A stretch of 10,891 nucleotides of DNA, taken from the UHGV virus genome UHGV-0104605. One strand, written 5' to 3'. Every line of letters starts with the position of its first letter. Position 1 is the stretch's first letter. This DNA is from a virus. The notes below the pieces were generated by a model. It had not been told where the DNA came from. It ran no database searches and saw only the letters and a list, made by a program, of their open reading frames with translations. Of the stretch, positions 3,053 to 10,594 are shown one piece after another. The translations under genes were made by a program, and so were the position numbers.

Positions 3053-3288
3053 GTCAGCATTCTGGCTACTTGCTTAGCCAGTTCCGCCAACTCCTCGTCT
3101 TCAACACCCCATTCAAGAACAGCCAGAAGCATTCCCATTTTGGGGATGAAGCTGTCTTTCCATCGCGAAATTTGCGATTCATTAACCCCTAACGCGTCGG
3201 CAACCTTTCGCTGACCACGTACAGCAATTCGATTCAGGATGTTGCTTGTAATTGCATTCGCTTTCTTGCGAGTACTTGTAAGTTGCAT
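3010..3288 (-). CDS. cII: cII-family transcriptional activator (P22 C1-like)
   Basis: 92 aa from ATG 3288 (AAGGA RBS upstream). The track ORF 3010..3348 is trimmed to this start. Motif GVNESQISRWKDSFIPKMGMLLAVLEWGV matches the cII helix-turn-helix and tetramerisation region (lambda GVDKSQISRWKRDWIPKFSMLLAVLEWGV, from memory). Sits between the Cro-proximal nutR/tR1 and the replication genes. Confidence 0.85.
   Translation of the reverse strand: MQLTSTRKKANAITSNILNRIAVRGQRKVADALGVNESQISRWKDSFIPKMGMLLAVLEWGVEDEELAELAKQVARMLTKEKAPKNGEFFEA
3014..3052 (+). terminator. Rho-independent terminator on the plus strand (oop-type)
   Basis: Stem gcctcgaagaa (3014-3024), loop ttcgccg, stem ttcttcggggc (3032-3042), followed by tttttctttt (3043-3052). 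On the minus strand the same region has no U-tract, so it should not terminate the cII-O transcript. Confidence 0.7.
3242..3255 (+). promoter_or_regulatory. cII-binding site of a pRE-like promoter (TTGC-N6-TTGC), directed toward cI
   Basis: ttgcttgtaattgc read directly on the plus strand inside the 5' part of the cII coding region. In lambdoid phages cII binds TTGC-N6-TTGC flanking the -35 of pRE at this position. The -10 is not confidently placed. Confidence 0.55.
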
Positions 3289-3299
3289 ATGTAAGTATT

Positions 3300-3399
3300 T
3301 CCTTAGATAACAATTGATTGAATGTATGCAAATAAATGCATACACCATAGGTGTGGTTTAATTTGATGCCCTTTTTCAGGGCTGGGATGTGTAAGAGCG
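3300..3399 (-). promoter_or_regulatory. nutR (boxA and boxB) and tR1 region between cro and cII
   Basis: On the minus strand, boxA CGCTCTTA (complement of 3392-3399) and boxB GCCCTGAAAAAGGGC (complement of 3368-3382) lie immediately after the cro stop. The following segment (aaaccacacctatggtgtatgcatttatttgcatacattcaatcaattg) matches the lambda tR1 region as I recall it. Confidence 0.8.
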
Positions 3400-3407
3400 G
3401 GAATGTC

Positions 3408-4760
<1,353 letters not shown>

Positions 4761-4809
4761 TCCCCACCTCAATCTCGATAACCAAAAACAAACTATTTTT
4801 CATTTAAAA

Positions 4810-4885
4810 ACAATGGAGTTTGTTTTTCACGCCCCTTTTTACAATATTTCTTGTTTACAACATACAATCTTTCTTGTAATTTTAA
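4810..4885 (+). promoter_or_regulatory. Left operator OL1-3 and pL, 434 type
   Basis: Three ACAA-N6-TTGT sites at 4810-4823 (acaatggagtttgt), 4841-4854 (acaatatttcttgt) and 4864-4877 (acaatctttcttgt). A plausible -35/-10 pair (tttaca about 4854-4859, taattt about 4877-4882) overlaps the sites and is oriented toward N. Confidence 0.75.
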
Positions 4886-4921
4886 GCCATCAGCAGGACG
4901 CACTGACCACCATGAAGGTGA

Positions 4922-4952
4922 GGCTCTTAAAAATTAAGCCCTGAAGAAGGGC
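4922..4952 (+). promoter_or_regulatory. nutL (boxA-like element and boxB hairpin)
   Basis: ggctctta (4922-4929), a 7/8 match to boxA CGCTCTTA, followed by boxB gccctgaagaagggc (4938-4952). The flanking sequence matches lambda nutL as I recall it, with one possible substitution in boxA. Confidence 0.85.
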
Positions 4953-6457: not shown

Positions 6458-6482
6458 GCCCTCCAATGTGAGGGCTTTTTTA
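6458..6482 (+). terminator. Rho-independent terminator within the pL operon (tL2/tL3-like)
   Basis: gccctc (6458-6463), loop caatgt, gagggc (6470-6475), then tttttt (6476-6481). Lies between the 67-aa gene and the cIII-like gene and would need N-mediated antitermination to be read through. Confidence 0.75.
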
Positions 6483-6547: not shown

Positions 6548-6718
6548 ATGCAACAGTTCGCTATTGCAGGGGCGGCATCGGTTCGCCCTTTCAACCCGAT
6601 TTTATCGGTACAGCATTCACGAAAAAACATTTTAACCGGAGCAGACTTTAAACAACCAAGAATGAAAAGTTTGCTCGAAAAGCTTTGGGATATTTTGAAA
6701 CAACAAGGCCGTCCATGA
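6548..6718 (+). CDS. cIII-like small protein (56 aa), candidate FtsH inhibitor
   Basis: RBS AAGGAG then ATG 6548. MQQFAIAGAAS...KSLLEKLWDILKQQGRP resembles lambda cIII (MQYAIAG ... ESLLERITRKLRDGWKRLIDILNQPGVP, from memory) at both ends. The upstream part of track ORF 6443..6718 crosses the terminator and is discarded. Confidence 0.45.
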   Translation: MQQFAIAGAASVRPFNPILSVQHSRKNILTGADFKQPRMKSLLEKLWDILKQQGRP

Positions 6719-6822
6719 GTTTTACAGATAACTGGTCAGACGAAGAATTCATTCGTCAGATGAACAAAATGCTCAATCAGCACAAAGAACAGGAGAAAGA
6801 TGATGATTCTGACTCTGAATGA
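6715..6822 (+). CDS. Possible small ORF (35 aa, acidic C-terminus)
   Basis: ATG overlaps the cIII-like stop (ATGA). Translates to MSFTDNWSDEEFIRQMNKMLNQHKEQEKDDDSDSE. Overlaps the next gene by 23 nt. It could be a Kil-position peptide or spurious. Confidence 0.25.
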   Translation: MSFTDNWSDEEFIRQMNKMLNQHKEQEKDDDSDSE

Positions 6823-7111
6823 TAAGCGTGAAATATCGCAAATAATCGCAAGTTTTACTGATGAAGATTACGAGCGAATCAACAGTGAAGTTGATCGCCT
6901 CTGCAAACGTTGCGACCCAATAAGCGAAATGCTTCGCTCATATAAACCAGATGAACACACTAAGGACGCTATCGACTGGCTGGAAGATGATGACTGTAAC
7001 TATCAGGAAAAAGCCGCTGAATGGTTCTGGGATGCAATAACCGAAAGAGTTAAGGCTGAATATGCCTTCGCAATATTCAAACGCAGACACATTTTTGGAG
7101 AAGCTGCATGA
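6800..7111 (+). CDS. Hypothetical acidic protein (103 aa) translationally coupled to recT
   Basis: RBS AGGAG upstream of ATG 6800. The stop overlaps the RecT start (ATGA at 7108-7111). Acidic, with a DWLEDDDCNYQE segment. No recognisable nuclease motifs. Confidence 0.55.
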   Translation: MMILTLNDKREISQIIASFTDEDYERINSEVDRLCKRCDPISEMLRSYKPDEHTKDAIDWLEDDDCNYQEKAAEWFWDAITERVKAEYAFAIFKRRHIFGEAA

Positions 7112-8010
7112 GCAATATCGTTGAATTCGTTAAACAGCAGGAGCAGTTATTCTGCGGAGCATTGACTGAACAGACGGTGACATGGGCTAAGGAAAGCCAG
7201 TTTGCAATTCAGTATTTCCAGAAAAACGATTACCTGGCTAAAACAGCACTGGCAAATCCAACCAGCGCACAGAACGCCATCATCAATGTTGCGGCGATCG
7301 GCATCACCTTAAACCCGGCCAGCAAACTGGCTTATCTGGTTCCTCGCGACGGCATGGTGTGCCTTGATATCAGTTACATGGGATTACTTCATCTTGCGCA
7401 ATCGACAGGATCAATTAAGTGGGGGCAATGCAAACTGGTGTACTCAAACGACACCTATGAATCAAATGGCCTTGATTCAGCACCAACCCACAAATACAAC
7501 GCATTTGGTGAGCGAGGCTCTATTGTTGGAGGTTATTGCACGGTTAAAACAGCAGATGGTGACTACCTGACTGAAGAAATGAGTCTGGCAGAAATTAAAG
7601 CTGTGGAAGCAACGAGCAAGGCAAAGAATGGACCGTGGAAAACATTCTGGGAAGAGATGGCGCGTAAAACAATAGTTAAACGCGCCAGCAAATACTGGCC
7701 TAAAGCCCAGCGACTGGATAATGCCATTCACCTGCTTAACGAAGATGAAGGTATGCATCAGGAACCAGTTATGCCGCACAAATCAGAGGAAGATATCCGC
7801 GAAGATGAACGGAAACGCCAGCAGGAAATAATGGATAAAGCACAACTTCTTTGCGATGAAATGGCTCAGGCAGAAAACATGGATGATTTGAAGCGATATT
7901 TTGCAGAAGCATATCGCCTGACAGCTGGAATGAAATTGCAGCAGAACGTACAAGCCATTTACGCAGAATGCAAAGCGAAACTGGAGGTTGCCAGTGAGCA
8001 AACTGTATGA
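7108..8010 (+). CDS. recT: RecT-family single-strand annealing protein (recombinase)
   Basis: 300 aa. Segment NGPWKTFWEEMARKTIVKRASKYWP matches the conserved RecT core (Rac RecT NGPWVTHWEEMAKKTAIRRLFKYLP, from memory). RBS GGAGAAG upstream. Confidence 0.85.
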   Translation: MSNIVEFVKQQEQLFCGALTEQTVTWAKESQFAIQYFQKNDYLAKTALANPTSAQNAIINVAAIGITLNPASKLAYLVPRDGMVCLDISYMGLLHLAQSTGSIKWGQCKLVYSNDTYESNGLDSAPTHKYNAFGERGSIVGGYCTVKTADGDYLTEEMSLAEIKAVEATSKAKNGPWKTFWEEMARKTIVKRASKYWPKAQRLDNAIHLLNEDEGMHQEPVMPHKSEEDIREDERKRQQEIMDKAQLLCDEMAQAENMDDLKRYFAEAYRLTAGMKLQQNVQAIYAECKAKLEVASEQTV

Positions 8011-8476
8011 AATTGCCAATGAATACGCAAAATTGATGGATTCAGATTTAGAGCCAGAGATGATTGCTGACACAATAGAAGGCATGGAAGGAGAATTTAC
8101 CGATAAAATAGAGCAACTTCTTGCCATTATTAAAAATGAATCTGGTTATGCTGAACGCCTCAAGGACGAGGCAAAGTCACTGAATGAGCGAGCCGCAGTA
8201 ATTCAAAATAAGATTGACAGCATTATGGCGTATATAGCGTCATCGCTTGAAATGGTTGGCAAGAAAAAGATTCGAGCAGGTATTCACCAGGTAACAATCC
8301 GCAAACCATCAGAAACTGTAGAAATCATCGACTCAAGCGCCCTTCCTCCTGAATACGTTGAGTTTGAAACGACAATTAAAGCCGACAAACTGGCAATCAA
8401 ACACCAACTAAAAGCAGGAATAAATATCCCCGGCGCTCAACTCAAAGTTGGGAAACCTTCACTTCTTATCAAATAA
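7994..8476 (+). CDS. Mu Gam-like / Siphovirus Gp157-family protein (recombination-associated, host-nuclease inhibitor candidate)
   Basis: About 160 aa from GTG 7994 (GGAGG 6 nt upstream; the track gives TTG 7988). N-terminal coiled-coil-like region and a basic C-terminal domain (KKKIRAGIHQVTIRKPSETVEII). Overlaps the recT 3' end. Family assignment is from recollection of architecture and genomic context. Confidence 0.5.
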   Translation: MSKLYEIANEYAKLMDSDLEPEMIADTIEGMEGEFTDKIEQLLAIIKNESGYAERLKDEAKSLNERAAVIQNKIDSIMAYIASSLEMVGKKKIRAGIHQVTIRKPSETVEIIDSSALPPEYVEFETTIKADKLAIKHQLKAGINIPGAQLKVGKPSLLIK

Positions 8477-8802
8477 TGGTATCGCCTATGAAAAAGACTC
8501 CATGGGAGAAATGGGAAGTCGATTTCTTGCGCGAAGTAGCGGCGACAATGCCAGTTGAAGTTATCGCTGAAAAACTGGAAAGGACTGAAAAAGCAGTAAT
8601 GGCGAAAGCAACAAGGATTGGCGCTGACATTGTTAGCCGACTTCGTGGAAGACGATGGACAAGAGCCGAAGTATCACTTTTCGGTAAGTTCTCCGCAGAA
8701 GAAATAGCAATTGCAACCTGCCGCTCAATTTATTCAGTAAGAGCTATGCGATACAAGCTAAAAAAACTCGATGAAGAAAGAGCAGGCATACGAATAAATT
8801 AA
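8476..8802 (+). CDS. Hypothetical protein (108 aa) with an internal two-fold repeat
   Basis: Start overlaps the previous stop (TAATG). Two similar segments ([41 protein letters not shown] and [39 protein letters not shown]), each resembling a small helical DNA-binding unit. Confidence 0.5.
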
Positions 8803-8818
8803 CAAAGAGGAATTTACC

Positions 8819-8983
8819 ATGAGAGGACTTGCATACAATCCCGGCATTCTTCCGGCAGAAATGATTATTCGCCAACGCGTAAAGCCAATGCCATCAAGAG
8901 AGGAATTGCTTAAGAGAAATTCTTTTCCATCAGTAAATCAAAACAAATATCTGAATGCAATGTGGCGGAGTGGGAAGAAATGA
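8819..8983 (+). CDS. Small hypothetical protein (54 aa)
   Basis: RBS AAGAGGAA then ATG 8819. The stop overlaps the next gene's ATG (ATGA at 8980-8983). Below the track cut-off. Confidence 0.4.
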
Positions 8984-9456
8984 AACAAATGACACTAATT
9001 GAGATGGATGGATTTCTGAAAGGTAAATGCATCCCAAGTGATTTAAAGGTTAACGAAACAAACGCTGAATATCTTGTCCGTAAGTTCGGTGAACTTGAAT
9101 CAAAACTGGAAACGGCGTTGCGGGAGTGTCGTTCTGCTGGAATCACGATTGATAACCTTGAGGCTAAATGCGCGAAGATGGCTGCTGAAAATACCTCACT
9201 TAAGCAATCTGAGAAGGAATTTAATGACTTTTGTCGTGAGGAGTTTAGCGAATGGGAAGATGATGTTACTGAAACCCCAGCCACCGACGCTTTCCTAGCT
9301 GAAGTTCGAGCGCAGGGCGTGGATATGGCTCGCAACGCGATGATTGATTTTTTTGATGGTGAAGTTGGGCCAAACAAGAACGTTCCGGGGCTGATTAGAG
9401 GCGCAGAGATATGCGTAAGTATTGCTGCCCAGCTTCGTAAAGGAGGCAACCAGTGA
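8980..9456 (+). CDS. Ead/Ea22-like modular protein, paralogue 1
   Basis: ATG 8980 (the track starts at GTG 8962). Shares segments with paralogue 2: [17 protein letters not shown] and a QLRKG C-terminus. Predicted coiled-coil N-terminal part. Confidence 0.6.
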
Positions 9457-10151
9457 GCGAAATTAACTATAAAGAACTGCGCGAGGCGGCGAAACAGGCA
9501 ACGCAAGATGAATGGGTAGCATATATTTTGCCGGGTCATAACGGCATTTATCCTGCGCGCACGTCTGAGGGTAGGCATTGCGGATACTTTATTGACTGGC
9601 CTGGCGTCTGTCAGGGGCGGGAGAGCATCAGCATGAGCATCAGAACCTACGCAGTGAATTGCAATGACGCATGGCTAAACACCGAAGGTGATGACATCTC
9701 CGGCTCATACGTTAAGTACAAAGACCATCAGGAAGTGGTTGCCGCTCTTGAGGCCAAGTGTGCGGCGCTGGCAGCGGAGAGTTCGGGGATGAAGAAGTTC
9801 TGCAAAGACGCTGCATTCGATGCCGATTACGAAGCAGAGCTAGGTATGGAGCGTGGTGGATTCAGTGATGCGCTTAACGAAATCAAAACCCCAGCCACCG
9901 ATGCTTTTCTAGCTGAAGTGAAGACTGAAGCACGCAAGGAAGGCGCTTATTTTGTGGCGAACAGAATGTTGGCAGCCTGGAAAGCTGGTTTTATTGATGA
10001 TACTGCGAAGAACGCCGCGGATATTGCCCGGATGATCCTTACCTCTACTGAGTTTATGGCTAATGCGCCGGAAGGCGATTTTGATCGCTCATTCTCTGAT
10101 GGCGTTCTCGAAGATATCGCCGAACAGCTTCGTAAAGGAGTCATCCAATGA
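9453..10151 (+). CDS. Ead/Ea22-like modular protein, paralogue 2
   Basis: GTG start overlapping the previous stop (GTGA), with AAAGGAGG upstream. N-terminus [15 protein letters not shown] parallels paralogue 3 (MSKIDYQKLREIAEK). Internal modules are shared with paralogue 1. Confidence 0.65.
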   Translation: MSEINYKELREAAKQATQDEWVAYILPGHNGIYPARTSEGRHCGYFIDWPGVCQGRESISMSIRTYAVNCNDAWLNTEGDDISGSYVKYKDHQEVVAALEAKCAALAAESSGMKKFCKDAAFDADYEAELGMERGGFSDALNEIKTPATDAFLAEVKTEARKEGAYFVANRMLAAWKAGFIDDTAKNAADIARMILTSTEFMANAPEGDFDRSFSDGVLEDIAEQLRKGVIQ

Positions 10152-10594
10152 GCAAGATTGATTATCAAAAGCTTCGTGAAATCGCTGAAAAAACAAAAAT
10201 TGCTGGTGAAGCACCTGTAATGCCTTTCGATCAGCGAATTAATGCGCTTAACGATTTTATGAAGCACTTTTCGCCAGATATCGCGCTGGCATTGTTGGAT
10301 GAATGGGAAAGAAACCAGCAATACATAAAACGCCGCGATCAGGAGAACGAGGATATTGCGCTAACGGTAGGGAAGCTGCGCGTTGAGCTTGAGGCAGAAA
10401 AACAGCGGGCAAAGGATCTATTTATGGAAAATGCCCGGCTTAAGTCAGGTATAGCCCGTCTGATACACCTCGGTATTCGATATGCAGATGTTGAGGTCAT
10501 GAGAATTGCTGGAGATGCCCAGCTTTCTACCCCATGCACTGACAGCATCATAAACAGCATTGCAACAGGCATTCGCATCAAAGGAGGTGAGTAA
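10148..10594 (+). CDS. Ead/Ea22-like modular protein, paralogue 3
   Basis: ATG overlaps the previous stop (ATGA), with AAAGGAG upstream. Shares the N-terminal module with paralogue 2. Coiled-coil-like middle (ELEAEKQRAKDLFMENARLK). Confidence 0.6.
   Translation: MSKIDYQKLREIAEKTKIAGEAPVMPFDQRINALNDFMKHFSPDIALALLDEWERNQQYIKRRDQENEDIALTVGKLRVELEAEKQRAKDLFMENARLKSGIARLIHLGIRYADVEVMRIAGDAQLSTPCTDSIINSIATGIRIKGGE

What the first reader, a model, noticed from the sequence alone, without database searches (positions are those of the whole stretch)
6800..8476. RecT annealase with no visible partner exonuclease, flanked by an acidic 103-aa protein and a Gam/Gp157-like protein
RecT-family annealases usually sit next to a 5'-3' exonuclease (RecE, lambda Exo or a YqaJ-type enzyme). 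Here the upstream, translationally coupled gene is a 103-aa acidic protein too small to be such a nuclease, and the downstream overlapping gene looks like a Mu Gam/Gp157-type DNA-end-binding protein. Either the exonuclease lies outside this window, or this module relies on host nucleases while protecting ends. The acidic protein could be a DNA mimic or nuclease inhibitor.
Basis: partly seen in the sequence, partly recalled or inferred. Interest (0 to 1): 0.4.

Follow-up and report, generated by a model that had tools for sequence, protein, structure and literature searches.

The report
Exonuclease-less RecT recombination cassette in prophage
This E. coli prophage carries a DNA-annealing recombinase (RecT) whose usual partner exonuclease has been replaced by a probable DNA-end-binding protein (Gp157), preceded by a small acidic protein that sits where phage lambda keeps its RecBCD inhibitor Gam; it is a little-studied variant of a known kind of phage recombination module, not a new kind of system.

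Summary
Window 6715-8983 is the recombination cassette of a P22-like/lambdoid E. coli prophage early-left operon. The order is cIII, a 35-aa Arf-like micro-ORF, a 102/103-aa acidic helical protein (p103, phrog_3486), RecT, Gp157, a 104-aa Abc1/Mu-gp9-family HTH protein, then DUF2737 (P22 orf56).

No 5'-3' exonuclease, Abc2 or lambda Gam is found in the window, in the rest of this prophage's early-left operon, or in the complete related phage mEpX1.

In relatives, p103 heads cassettes built on RecT, on Erf or on a RecE-type nuclease. The slot after the annealase holds either a YqaJ exonuclease or Gp157. The annealase's C-terminal tail changes with that partner, on both RecT and Erf cores, so Gp157 is probably RecT's dedicated partner.

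Lambda Gam or Gam-like genes replace p103 in three sibling phages. p103 also shares a 25-residue motif with lambda Gam (hhalign P 0.0016; 0 of 600 shuffles reach it).

Most likely Gp157 holds DNA ends for RecT, host enzymes do the resection, and p103 inhibits a host nuclease. All three steps are inferred, not shown. This is a new variant of a known kind, of moderate interest.

The parts
6458..6475 (+). Terminator-like hairpin (GCCCTC...GAGGGC followed by a T run) upstream of cIII. It is presumably read through under N antitermination. It marks where the cIII-to-Ea22 transcription unit begins.
   Evidence: mEpX1 annotates a rho-independent terminator at the equivalent place. There is no further + strand terminator-like site until 9529.
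6548..6718 (+). cIII homologue. It is the left boundary of the recombination cassette, as in P22 and lambda.
   Evidence: phrog_550 'CIII anti-termination', E 1e-22. It holds the same position as c3 in P22.
6715..6822 (+). 35-aa acidic micro-ORF (MSFTDNWSDEEFIRQMNKML...). It is Arf-like. Its start overlaps the cIII stop, and its end overlaps the start of p103.
   Evidence: - phrog_17766, E 5e-16; phrog_2123 'recombinase', E 3.5e-10 over the first 20 residues.
- It shares (W/F)SDEEFI with P22 Arf: BLASTP E 0.005, but over only 12 aa.
- Diverged protein-level copies lie upstream of p103 in Enterobacter (L015) and in Cronobacter phage ENT47670.
- It is present in all 80 IMG/VR loci.
- pI 4.3.
6803..7111 (+). 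p103: a 102-aa (103 aa from the ATG at 6800) acidic, all-helical protein of unknown function (phrog_3486). It sits in the gam/arf slot directly upstream of the annealase and is translationally coupled to it. It is a candidate host-nuclease (RecBCD) inhibitor.
   Evidence: **Family**
- phrog_3486, E 4e-59; no Pfam, NCBIfam or PADLOC hit.
- The family is small: 27 clusters at 90% identity and 54 matches among the 50%-identity representatives, most of them stand-alone proteins of about 100 aa.

**Structure**
- AF2 predicts five helices, pLDDT 75.
- No PDB fold match below E 2.

**Position**
- Always directly upstream of a recombination gene: RecT, Erf or a RecE-type nuclease.
- Replaced by lambda Gam or Gam-like genes in Dewey, HK639 and KO-TP1.

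**Motif shared with lambda Gam**
- Residues 52-76 align with GamS 57-81.
7108..7752 (+). RecT annealase core (residues 1 to about 215).
   Evidence: - PF03837, 2.6e-33, residues 31-214.
- phrog_148, 9e-92.
- PDB RecT 7ub2, E 7e-5.
- 47-49% identical to the cores of the exonuclease-partnered RecT proteins of ENT47670 and Midgardsormr38.
7753..8010 (+). RecT C-terminal tail (residues about 216-300). This is a partner-specific module that co-occurs with a downstream Gp157 gene. It is the inferred Gp157-docking domain.
   Evidence: - It does not align with the tails of exonuclease-partnered RecT proteins: BLASTP alignment stops at residue 217, and identity is 18-21%.
- tblastn finds the tail in 24 phage records, on RecT cores and on the Erf core of Pantoea phage PdC23.
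- Wherever the gene order was checked, a Gp157-family gene follows. Pseudomonas phage 15b fits on coordinates; phage 15G was not examined.
- The opposite case also holds. The Erf of L097 and the RecT proteins of Midgardsormr38 and ENT47670 share a different tail (43.5% identity over 124 aa with Midgardsormr38, E 9e-26; 37% over 128 aa with ENT47670, E 2e-23). All three are followed by a YqaJ exonuclease.
7994..8476 (+). Gp157-family protein (160 aa) occupying the slot that holds the exonuclease in related cassettes. It is a probable Mu Gam-like DNA-end binder and the annealase's partner.
   Evidence: - PF05565, 1.5e-36, full length; PF07352 (Mu Gam) E 0.0089, below cut-off.
- The Listeria LP-101 family member reaches 27.7 bits on PF07352 against a cut-off of 28.3.
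- AF2 model: a long helix (21-88) followed by a beta-rich C-terminal domain, pLDDT 78.7.
- Foldseek against PDB finds nothing. Against BFVD it finds only Gp157-family and unnamed proteins.
- The gene is adjacent to an annealase in every phage sampled.
- A diverse alignment shows no conserved nuclease-type motif.
8488..8802 (+). 104-aa basic protein with two HTH-like repeats (w105), of the Abc1 / Mu gp9 family (phrog_323).
   Evidence: - phrog_323, 5.5e-21; phrog_11492, 5e-23.
- P22 Abc1 (1.3e-23) and Mu gp9 (5.2e-29) hit the same PHROG.
- BLASTP to Mu gp9 gives E 5e-5 and shows an internal repeat. BLASTP to P22 Abc1 gives nothing.
- In Enterobacter adelaidei the same slot holds a true Abc1 homologue, 51% identical to P22 Abc1.
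- In Mu, gp9 lies directly upstream of gam.
- pI 10.
8819..8983 (+). DUF2737 protein, a homologue of P22 orf56. It is the right boundary of the cassette.
   Evidence: 75% identical to P22 orf56, E 6e-32. In P22, orf56 follows abc2.

Best explanation
**What it is.** Window 6715-8802 is the general-recombination cassette of a P22-like/lambdoid prophage. It is transcribed from pL under N antitermination. It is a two-component recombinase in which the annealase (RecT) is paired with a Gp157-family protein instead of an exonuclease.

**Shown**
- Gene order and translational coupling.
- Family assignments for RecT and Gp157.
- The true absence of any phage exonuclease, Abc2 or lambda Gam.
- The slot after the annealase holds either a YqaJ exonuclease or Gp157 in related phages.
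- The annealase's C-terminal tail switches together with that partner, on both RecT and Erf cores.
- p103 heads cassettes built on different recombinases, and it alternates with lambda Gam or Gam-like genes.

**Inferred mechanism**
1. Gp157 binds double-stranded DNA ends, as its distant relative Mu Gam does. It shields them from RecBCD and other exonucleases.
2. The RecT tail (residues about 216-300) docks on Gp157, much as the Red-beta C-terminal domain docks on lambda Exo. RecT is thereby brought to the end.
3. Single-stranded DNA comes from host enzymes or from replication, since the phage supplies no nuclease. RecT then anneals it to a complementary strand.
4. p103 acts on the host rather than on a particular phage recombinase, most likely as an inhibitor or modulator of RecBCD.
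5. The Arf-like micro-ORF and the Abc1-family HTH protein are accessory factors, like their P22 namesakes, whose roles are also unknown.
For: **Absence of an exonuclease**
-.

**The slot after the annealase holds either an exonuclease or Gp157**
- ENT47670 and Midgardsormr38: p103, RecT, YqaJ exonuclease (PF09588, about 2e-30).
- L097: p103, Erf, YqaJ exonuclease, w105-like protein.
- Window-type phages, L015, PA-1, HK639, KO-TP1 and two Aeromonas phages: RecT then Gp157. PdC23: Erf, an HNH insert, then Gp157.

**The tail goes with the partner**
-.
- The precedent is the Red-beta C-terminal domain bound to lambda Exo (PMC6393309).

**Gp157 next to annealases without an exonuclease is general**
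-.
- Steczkiewicz et al. 2021 (PMC8093625).

**Link between Gp157 and Mu Gam**
-.

**The module is functional**
- It occurs in isolated phages (mEpX1, HK140, Gally, Kapi1).
- It occurs in 265 complete E. coli genomes.
- It is kept across genera at 44-66% identity.

**p103 in the Gam slot**
- Dewey has lambda Gam (PF06064, 1.5e-50) in front of an 86%-identical RecT and a Gp157 gene.
- HK639 and KO-TP1 have Gam-like genes there.
- No locus examined holds both p103 and a Gam gene.

**p103 motif shared with lambda Gam**
- hhalign P 0.0014-0.0016 over 25-27 columns at 41-44% identity.
- 0 of 600 column shuffles reach the score: 22.0 against a maximum of 18.1.
- It is the only lambda Gam tblastn hit in the window, L001, mEpX1 and Gally.

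**Precedent for exonuclease-less phage recombination using the host**
- P22 Erf and Abc2 (PMC9836394).
Against: - No biochemical function is known for any Gp157-family protein.
- Its Mu Gam similarity is below Pfam's cut-off. hhalign against the single Mu Gam sequence is not significant (E 0.037 and 0.28).
- Foldseek finds no Ku or Gam fold in the PDB.
- A physical contact between the tail and Gp157 is inferred only from co-inheritance. Gp157-partnered RecT cores are also closer to each other (71-84%) than to exonuclease-partnered ones (47-49%), so for RecT alone the tail difference could partly be ordinary divergence. The cross-family cases (Erf cores) carry the argument.
- The p103-Gam similarity is one short motif with hhalign probability of only 16-17%.
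- p103 lacks the N-terminal helix that Gam inserts into RecB.
- The Gam-like proteins of HK639 and KO-TP1 share only that helix with lambda Gam, and nothing with p103.
- If Gp157 blocks ends against nucleases, how resection proceeds is unexplained.
Confidence: 0.55

Rival explanations
1. P22-style hijack. p103, alone or with the Abc1-family protein and the Arf-like peptide, does not inhibit RecBCD. Instead it reprograms it, as P22 Abc2 does, so that RecBCD resects phage ends and loads RecT. Gp157 would only modulate access to the ends.
For: - The cassette lies between the same flanks as P22 arf-erf-abc1-abc2 (cIII and orf56/DUF2737).
- It has an Arf-like ORF and an Abc1-family protein. A true Abc1 sits in the same slot in L015.
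- Abc2-carrying phages lack an exonuclease because RecBCD is co-opted (PMC9836394).
Against: - No Abc2 homologue is present.
- p103 also heads cassettes that carry their own exonuclease (ENT47670, Midgardsormr38, L097, SEN22). A hijacked RecBCD is not needed for resection there. This is the lambda situation (Gam plus Exo), not the P22 one.
- p103 alternates with lambda Gam, a pure inhibitor.
Confidence: 0.2
2. p103 is a cofactor of the phage recombination proteins themselves, not an anti-host protein. It could be a mediator that helps load the annealase on SSB-coated DNA, or a chaperone.
For: - It is always directly upstream of the first recombination gene and usually translationally coupled to it.
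- P22 Arf, which is in the equivalent position, stimulates Erf-mediated recombination (annotation; PMC9836394).
- There are weak, non-significant Foldseek resemblances to the T4 mediator UvsY (E 4.8-9.8).
Against: - Its downstream neighbour belongs to unrelated families: RecT, Erf, a RecE-type PD-(D/E)XK nuclease, and a 300-aa phrog_2489 protein. A specific protein contact is therefore hard to conserve.
- It is exchangeable with Gam.
- The UvsY matches are at chance level.
Confidence: 0.15
3. Gp157 is itself the missing nuclease: a divergent, unrecognised exonuclease that replaces YqaJ functionally as well as positionally.
For: - It sits exactly in the exonuclease slot and co-varies with the annealase tail, as an exonuclease would.
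- Low-ranking BFVD Foldseek matches include proteins named PD-(D/E)XK endonuclease-like (E 8e-3, TM 0.40, 120 columns of a 398-aa protein) and exonuclease (E 0.3-0.45).
Against: - A diverse alignment has only 12 invariant positions: M1 L4 Y5 D26 T27 K38 E59 L63 G142 G147 L157 I159.
- The only invariant acidic residues lie in the helical part.
- No D...(D/E)xK, His or metal-site pattern appears in the beta domain.
- The family's only detectable relative is Mu Gam, which is not an enzyme.
- The nuclease-named hits are much longer proteins that match at marginal scores.
Confidence: 0.06
4. The cassette is a decaying remnant. The exonuclease was lost, and RecT and its neighbours are on their way to pseudogenes.
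For: The window comes from a prophage. Elsewhere in the same operon there is a theta pseudogene with an internal stop.
Against: - All ORFs are intact and coupled.
- The same order is found in all 80 IMG/VR loci returned, in 265 complete E. coli genomes and in isolated phages.
- The RecT-Gp157 pair is conserved across Escherichia, Enterobacter, Pantoea, Klebsiella, Aeromonas and Pseudomonas phages, with protein-level divergence but no disruption.
Confidence: 0.03

Closest known systems
Phage lambda Red system (gam-bet-exo) in the pL operon
   Same: - Same place in the early-left operon, after cIII/kil.
- Same logic of slots: a small acidic protein, then the annealase, then the annealase's partner.
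- In Dewey, real lambda Gam sits in the p103 slot in front of an 86%-identical RecT.
- In ENT47670 and Midgardsormr38 the order p103-RecT-YqaJ exonuclease reproduces gam-bet-exo.
- The annealase C-terminal tail goes with its partner, as the Red-beta C-terminal domain does with Exo (PMC6393309).
   Different: - There is no exonuclease; Gp157 takes its place.
- The annealase belongs to the RecT rather than the Red-beta subfamily.
- p103 is not a Pfam Gam. It shares only a 25-residue motif and lacks Gam's N-terminal helix that plugs RecB.
Phage P22 arf-erf-abc1-abc2 recombination module
   Same: - Same flanking genes: c3/cIII on one side, orf56/DUF2737 (75% identical) on the other.
- No phage exonuclease.
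- An Arf-like micro-ORF and an Abc1-family (phrog_323) protein are present.
   Different: - The annealase is RecT, not Erf.
- Abc2, the RecBCD-hijacking protein that explains P22's lack of an exonuclease, is absent.
- p103 and Gp157 have no P22 counterpart.
Gp157 / Mu Gam-like genes next to erf-ssb and sak4 modules in phages of Firmicutes (Steczkiewicz et al. 2021, PMC8093625)
   Same: A Gp157-family gene lies immediately beside a single-strand annealing protein, with no canonical exonuclease. This was confirmed here for Sfi11, Staphylococcus phage 92, Listeria LP-101 and Klebsiella VLCpiS13b.
   Different: - In those phages the annealase is Erf or Sak4, Gp157 is usually upstream, and an SSB gene follows.
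- That paper reports recT as typically paired with YqaJ or DUF3799 exonucleases.
- Here RecT is the partner, Gp157 is downstream, no SSB gene is present, and the cassette carries the enterobacterial accessory genes.
Phage Mu Gam (Ku-like DNA-end-binding protein) with its upstream neighbour gp9
   Same: - Gp157 has weak full-length similarity to the Mu Gam Pfam model. Its predicted architecture is a long helix followed by a beta-rich domain.
- The neighbouring 104-aa protein is a homologue of Mu gp9 (BLASTP 5e-5, same PHROG). In Mu, gp9 is adjacent to gam.
   Different: - Scores stay below Pfam's cut-off, and hhalign against the single Mu Gam sequence is not significant.
- The order of the two genes is reversed.
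- Mu Gam is not linked to an annealase.
Rac prophage RecE-RecT and other RecT-exonuclease pairs
   Same: The annealase belongs to the same family (PF03837, TIGR00616).
   Different: No RecE, YqaJ or DUF3799 nuclease is present. SEN22 shows that the same flanks (p103 on one side, w105 on the other) can instead enclose a RecE-type nuclease plus an unclassified 189-aa protein.

Membership tests
RecT/Red-beta single-strand annealing proteins (Pfam PF03837, TIGR00616) | Sequence match to the family model above the curated cut-off | tested here: met
   PF03837: 115.7 bits against 24, residues 31-214. TIGR00616: 76.8 bits against 52.65. PDB RecT 7ub2: E 7e-5.
Two-component exonuclease + annealase recombinase (lambda Red / RecET type) | A 5'-3' dsDNA exonuclease (lambda Exo/YqaJ, RecE/DUF3799) encoded with the annealase | tested here: not met
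   None is found in the window, in the rest of the prophage's early-left operon, or in the complete phage mEpX1. Relatives with the orthologous RecT core do have a YqaJ gene in the slot that Gp157 fills here.
Siphovirus Gp157 family (Pfam PF05565) | Full-length match above the curated cut-off | tested here: met
   126.3 bits against 28.6, residues 5-162 on profile positions 1-162. phrog_253: 3.7e-53.
Mu Gam / Ku-like DNA-end-binding proteins (Pfam PF07352) | Sequence match above the curated cut-off | tested here: not met
   - Window protein: 16.4 bits against 28.3 (E 0.0089), though nearly full length.
- The Listeria LP-101 Gp157 member reaches 27.7 bits (E 3e-6), still just under the cut-off.
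- hhalign against the single Mu Gam sequence: E 0.037 and 0.28.
- Remote homology is plausible but membership is not established.
Mu Gam / Ku-like DNA-end-binding proteins (Pfam PF07352) | Ku-like fold; binding of linear dsDNA ends and protection from exonucleases | tested here: inconclusive
   - AF2 model (pLDDT 78.7, pTM 0.38): a long helix plus a beta-rich domain.
- Foldseek finds no Ku or Gam structure in the PDB. In BFVD it finds only Gp157-family and unnamed proteins.
- DNA binding cannot be tested with these tools.
Lambda Gam host-nuclease inhibitor (Pfam PF06064), considered for p103 | Sequence match to the family model, including the N-terminal helix that enters RecB | tested here: not met
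   - No Pfam hit.
- Only a local 25-column motif matches: p103 residues 52-76 with GamS 57-81, hhalign P 0.0016, probability 16%.
- No counterpart of the Gam N-terminal helix is present.
Lambda Gam host-nuclease inhibitor (Pfam PF06064), considered for p103 | Binds and inhibits RecBCD | not testable with these tools
   Only positional evidence is available. p103 shares the slot with Gam, alternates with Gam and Gam-like genes, and is small, acidic and helical.
P22-type exonuclease-less recombination module (Erf with Abc2) | Presence of Abc2, the RecC-binding protein that co-opts RecBCD | tested here: not met
   - BLASTP of p103, Gp157 and w105 against Abc2: E 3.1 for p103, no alignment for the other two.
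- hhalign of the p103 family against Abc2: E 0.099.
- tblastn of Abc2 finds no hit in the window, L001 or mEpX1.
P22 Abc1 / Mu gp9 family (phrog_323), considered for the 104-aa protein | Match to the same profile family as P22 Abc1 | tested here: inconclusive
   - All three proteins hit phrog_323: w105 5.5e-21, Abc1 1.3e-23, Mu gp9 5.2e-29.
- They match on partly shifted segments of a repeat-containing profile.
- BLASTP: w105 to Mu gp9 E 5e-5; w105 to Abc1 no alignment.
- A true Abc1 homologue fills the same slot in L015.
P22 Arf (accessory recombination function), considered for the 35-aa ORF | Sequence similarity over the length of Arf | tested here: inconclusive
   - Only the N-terminal motif is shared: 6 of 12 identical, E 0.005.
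- phrog_2123 match covers profile positions 1-20 only.
- It has the same position, after cIII/kil and before the annealase, and is acidic like Arf.

The most novel reading that the evidence does not exclude
Gp157 proteins define a third kind of two-component phage recombinase. An annealase (RecT, Erf or Sak4) is tethered through an exchangeable C-terminal tail to a Ku/Gam-like end-binding protein instead of to an exonuclease, and resection is left to the host. In the same cassette, p103 founds a new family of RecBCD inhibitors distantly related to the body of lambda Gam. The Abc1/Mu-gp9 HTH proteins are conserved partners of Gam-like end binders.
Probability: 0.3. Interest if true: 0.65.

Novelty: new variant of a known kind. 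Interest (0 to 1): 0.45.

Why it matters
**Open questions it could address**
- Annealases without an exonuclease are common in phages, but how they obtain single-stranded DNA is unresolved outside P22.
- The function of the very widespread Gp157 family is unknown. tblastn found it in 586 phage records here.

**Why this cassette is a convenient test bed**
- It is an E. coli version with cultivable phages (mEpX1, HK140, Gally, Kapi1).
- Natural sibling cassettes differ by one part at a time: Gam instead of p103, YqaJ exonuclease instead of Gp157, Erf instead of RecT.
- The observation that the annealase tail switches with the partner gene gives a concrete, testable interaction.

**If p103 proves to be a RecBCD inhibitor**
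- It would add a family to a short list (Gam, T7 gp5.9, Abc2).
- That list matters for recombineering, for cell-free expression systems, and for understanding defence systems that guard RecBCD.

None of this overturns current views. It extends them.

Tried and rejected
**Gally's label 'Anti-RecBCD protein 1 (Abc1)' for the gene after Gp157**
- BLASTP to P22 Abc1 gives no alignment, so I first rejected the label.
- The shared PHROG and a true Abc1 in the same slot in Enterobacter revived it as a remote family relationship.

**p103 as Abc2, Abc1 or Arf**
- Nothing found by BLASTP or hhalign.

**p103 fold**
- AF2 with only 5 sequences gave pLDDT 75.
- Foldseek against the PDB gave no hit below E 2.
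- Profile search of PDB sequences gave only chance-level matches.

**Gp157 fold**
- No PDB match.
- BFVD returned only its own family and unnamed proteins.
- The afdb50 library was not available.

**Gp157 against the single Mu Gam sequence by hhalign**
- Not significant.

**SEN22 189-aa protein as a Gp157 relative**
- No. It has no PDB or Pfam match.

**HK639 Gam-like protein as a bridge between lambda Gam and p103**
- No. It shares only Gam's N-terminal helix.

**Collection scans**
- Scans with the broad p103 alignments failed for lack of a conserved stretch.
- The genome scan found one locus.
- Three of four scans with single distant members found nothing.

**Other**
- No defence-system match in PADLOC.
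- Rfam found nothing in the window.
- I initially thought loci from the phage collection were missing from the scripting machine. They were stored inside multi-record files.

Full report
**1. Where the window comes from**

The window is 100% identical to a prophage in E. coli EH01-18-04-A (NZ_CP063515, locus L001). The prophage is P22-like/lambdoid.
- On the minus strand it has a DnaB-type helicase, a replication protein, cII and cro.
- On the plus strand it has a cI-type repressor, N, Ral, two small ORFs, cIII, the finding, three Ea22-like genes and, beyond the window, more small genes, xis and int.
- Terminator-like hairpins follow ral and precede cIII. None is seen on the plus strand between 6516 and 9529, so cIII to Ea22 is one transcription unit.

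**2.

The three genes are at the stated coordinates.
- The acidic protein's stop overlaps the RecT start (ATGA at 7108-7111).
- Gp157 most likely starts at the GTG at 7994, five bases after a GGAGG, and overlaps the end of RecT by 17 nt.

Family assignments:
- RecT is a clear family member: PF03837 at 115.7 bits against 24, TIGR00616 above its cut-off, PDB RecT 7ub2 at E 7e-5.
- The downstream protein is a full-length Sipho_Gp157 member (126 bits against 28.6). Its Mu Gam match is weak (E 0.0089, below cut-off).
- The upstream protein (here p103) has no Pfam, NCBIfam or PADLOC match. It is phrog_3486, function unknown.
- p103 has pI 4.65 and net charge -9. AF2 predicts five helices at pLDDT 75.

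**3. There is no exonuclease anywhere in the phage**
- In L001 the rest of the early-left operon up to int contains only small ORFs, a DUF550 protein that Pfam identifies as a dATP/dGTP pyrophosphohydrolase, and a theta pseudogene. None has a nuclease domain.
- The nin region has NinB/Orf and NinG/Rap only.
- The complete isolated phage mEpX1 carries the same cassette at 94% DNA identity and has no annotated exonuclease.
- tblastn with three YqaJ exonucleases, a RecE-type nuclease, P22 Abc2 and lambda Gam finds no exonuclease and no Abc2 in the window, L001, mEpX1 or Gally.

**4. The cassette has more parts than the finding listed**
- *A 35-aa micro-ORF (6715-6822).* It lies between cIII (6548-6718, phrog_550) and p103. 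It starts on the cIII stop, and its N-terminus (WSDEEFI) resembles P22 Arf (FSDEEFI). It matches phrog_17766 and the first 20 positions of phrog_2123. Diverged copies precede p103 in Enterobacter and Cronobacter elements, which argues that it is translated.
- *A 104-aa basic protein (8488-8802).* It follows Gp157 and has two HTH-like repeats. It, P22 Abc1 and Mu gp9 all match phrog_323. It aligns with Mu gp9 by BLASTP (5e-5) but not with Abc1. In Enterobacter adelaidei the same slot holds a true Abc1 homologue (51% identity). In Mu, gp9 is the gene next to gam.
- *The DUF2737 gene (8819-8983).* It is 75% identical to P22 orf56, which follows abc2 in P22.

So the cassette sits between the same flanks as P22 kil-arf-erf-abc1-abc2. 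It is a mosaic replacement of that module.

**5. What relatives show**

All 80 IMG/VR loci returned for p103 (the closest of 236 matching stretches) have the order micro-ORF, p103, RecT, Gp157, 104-aa protein, DUF2737, apart from those cut by contig ends. More distant or recombinant relatives are more informative:

| Element | Gene order |
|---|---|
| Cronobacter phage ENT47670 (p103 49% identical) | p103, RecT, YqaJ exonuclease |
| Erwinia phage Midgardsormr38 (p103 39% identical) | p103, RecT, YqaJ exonuclease |
| L097 | p103, Erf, YqaJ exonuclease, w105-like |
| SEN22 | micro-ORF, p103, RecE-type PD-(D/E)XK nuclease, 189-aa unknown, w105, DUF2737 |
| PdC23 | p103, Erf, HNH insert, Gp157 |
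| PA-1 | cIII, micro-ORF, p103, RecT, Gp157 |
| Dewey | lambda Gam (PF06064, 1.5e-50), RecT (86% identical), Gp157, w105 |
| HK639 and KO-TP1 | kil, Gam-like, RecT, Gp157 |
| Two Aeromonas phages | RecT, Gp157 (followed by SSB in phiA005) |

In ENT47670 and Midgardsormr38 the RecT core is 47-49% identical to the window's.

Two rules emerge.
- The slot after the annealase holds either an exonuclease or Gp157.
- The slot before it holds either p103 or a Gam-type gene, whatever the recombinase family.

**6. The annealase tail goes with the partner**
- The window RecT aligns with the exonuclease-partnered RecT proteins only over residues 1-217. The last 85 residues are 18-21% identical, against 42-66% for Gp157-partnered RecT proteins.
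- On its own this could be faster divergence of the tail. The cross-family cases are decisive.
- The Erf of L097 shares a roughly 120-residue C-terminal tail with the RecT proteins of Midgardsormr38 (43.5% identity, E 9e-26) and ENT47670 (37%, E 2e-23). All three are followed by YqaJ exonucleases.
- The window-type tail is found on the Erf core of PdC23 (53% over 53 residues), which is followed by Gp157.
- The tail was found in 24 phage records. In every one whose gene order was checked, a Gp157-family gene follows. Pseudomonas phage 15b fits on coordinates alone.
- By analogy with the Red-beta C-terminal domain, which binds lambda Exo (PMC6393309), I infer that this tail docks RecT on Gp157.

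**7. What Gp157 may be**
- The family is large: 586 phage records by tblastn.
- In the four distant phages sampled it lies directly beside Sak4 or Erf, with no canonical exonuclease. This agrees with the survey of Firmicutes phages, which however reported recT as typically paired with exonucleases (PMC8093625).
- The link to Mu Gam rests on near-full-length but sub-threshold matches to PF07352: window protein 16.4 bits, Listeria LP-101 member 27.7 bits, cut-off 28.3.
- hhalign against the single Mu Gam sequence is not significant.
- The AF2 model has a 68-residue helix and a beta-rich domain. It finds no PDB relative.
- A diverse alignment shows no nuclease-like motif. I therefore give the 'hidden nuclease' idea low weight, despite a few marginal BFVD matches to nuclease-named proteins.

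**8. What p103 may be**
- It is a small family: 54 matches among the 50%-identity representatives, most of them stand-alone proteins of about 100 aa.
- The p103 profile aligns 25 columns with the most conserved part of lambda GamS. The aligned segments are HTKDAIDWLEDDDCNYQEKAAEWFW and ASKNAISKAFDDDVEFQERAAEFIR, 44% identical, P 0.0016, probability 16%.
- None of 600 column-shuffled controls reaches the score: 22.0 against a mean of 10.9, sd 2.1 and maximum 18.1.
- An unbiased tblastn of lambda Gam against the window, the prophage, mEpX1 and Gally hits only this spot.
- p103 lacks Gam's N-terminal helix, which is the part that plugs the RecB channel (PMC5218532).
- Taken together, the Gam-slot position, the exchange with Gam genes, the independence from recombinase type and the acidic helical nature make a host-directed role the best reading, most likely RecBCD inhibition or modulation. 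I put this at roughly 45% on its own.

**9. Mechanism proposed, and its rivals**

*Shown:* anatomy, absence of an exonuclease, slot alternation, co-inheritance of tail and partner.

*Inferred:*
- Gp157 binds and shields DNA ends and recruits RecT through the tail.
- Host enzymes or replication supply the single strand.
- p103 neutralises a host nuclease.
- The Arf-like and Abc1-family proteins assist.

*Rivals:*
- A P22-style RecBCD hijack by p103 and/or the Abc1-family protein. It is weakened because p103 also accompanies cassettes that have their own exonuclease.
- p103 as a recombinase cofactor. It is weakened by the variety of its neighbours.
- Gp157 as a cryptic nuclease.
- Decay. This is contradicted by conservation in 265 complete E. 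coli genomes and in isolated phages.

**10. Verdict**

It is a variant of known phage recombination modules, not a new kind of system.
- Exonuclease-less annealases (P22) and Gp157 next to annealases (Firmicutes phages) are both documented.
- What appears not to be described in the papers I could search is the RecT-Gp157 pairing in enterobacterial phages, the partner-specific annealase tail shared across RecT and Erf cores, and the p103 family as a Gam-slot protein with a Gam-like motif.
- Interest is moderate (0.45).

Noticed in passing
L005 (Salmonella phage SEN22) 4955-5524: A 189-aa protein (phrog_11517, unknown function) follows a RecE-type nuclease in the slot where an annealase would be expected. 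It has no Pfam, NCBIfam, PADLOC or PDB sequence match. It may be an unclassified annealase or SSB-like protein.
   Followed up: partly
L096 (IMG/VR contig) 4038-4940: A 300-aa protein lies between p103 and Gp157. It matches PHROGs labelled 'exonuclease' (phrog_2489, 8e-92; phrog_7838, 3e-63) but has no Pfam or PDB match. Whether it is a nuclease or a mislabelled annealase is open. It bears on what Gp157 can partner with.
   Followed up: partly
L102 1932-2045, L008 3888-4004, L096 3671-3781, L097 3894-4004: A second, basic type of 36-38-aa micro-ORF (MK...A..L.R.A...KWAAAM..L) is conserved directly upstream of p103 in Pantoea, Erwinia and metagenomic phages. It takes the place of the acidic Arf-like micro-ORF of the window.
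   Followed up: no
L010 (phage Mu) 5482-5781 and 5801-6325: Mu gp9, a homologue of the window's 104-aa protein and a member of the same PHROG as P22 Abc1, lies directly upstream of Mu gam. Small HTH proteins of this family may be conserved companions of Gam-like end binders. The Abc1 homologue in L015 (51% identical to P22 Abc1) matches sigma-70 region 4 HTH models.
   Followed up: partly
L100 (HK639) 2044-2328; L103 (KO-TP1) 1547-1828: The 'Gam-like' proteins (94 aa in HK639, phrog_1050) share only the first 30 residues with lambda GamS, which is the helix that enters RecB. The rest is unrelated, so Gam itself looks modular.
   Followed up: partly
L001 22198-23622: The prophage is integrated next to the host gene sbcB (exonuclease I), just beyond its integrase. 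This is probably coincidence, but worth noting for a phage that lacks its own exonuclease.
   Followed up: no
L001 18835-19524 and 19873-20154: The same early-left operon carries a DUF550 protein that Pfam identifies as a dATP/dGTP pyrophosphohydrolase (4.5e-42). It also carries a DNA polymerase III theta homologue annotated as a pseudogene with an internal stop.
   Followed up: partly
window 4449-4760: A small gene between the cI-type repressor and N encodes a protein with an N-terminal hydrophobic signal-like segment ([20 protein letters not shown]...). It has no Pfam match. It lies in the position where lambdoid phages carry lysogen-expressed exclusion genes.
   Followed up: no
protein P0025 (E. 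coli), compared with window 6715-7111: A 69-aa E. coli protein fuses the N-terminus of the Arf-like micro-ORF to the C-terminal half of p103. This looks like a deletion between the two DDD-coding stretches.
   Followed up: no
proteins P0048 (3663 aa), P0070 (2283 aa), P0064, P0057: Very long proteins match the p103 profile in 5-13 separate stretches each (E 6e-11 to 1e-4). They may be repetitive helical proteins giving spurious matches, or they may contain a repeated p103-like unit.
   Followed up: no
L099 (PdC23) 3147-3611; phage Louie: In PdC23 an HNH homing-endonuclease gene is inserted exactly between the annealase and Gp157. In phage Louie an HNH endonuclease is annotated within the matched segment, which is split into four pieces there.
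   Followed up: no
window 8962-10594: Three consecutive Ea22-like genes share internal segments, for example [11 protein letters not shown](R/K) in the first two. This suggests repeated recombination among paralogues.
   Followed up: no
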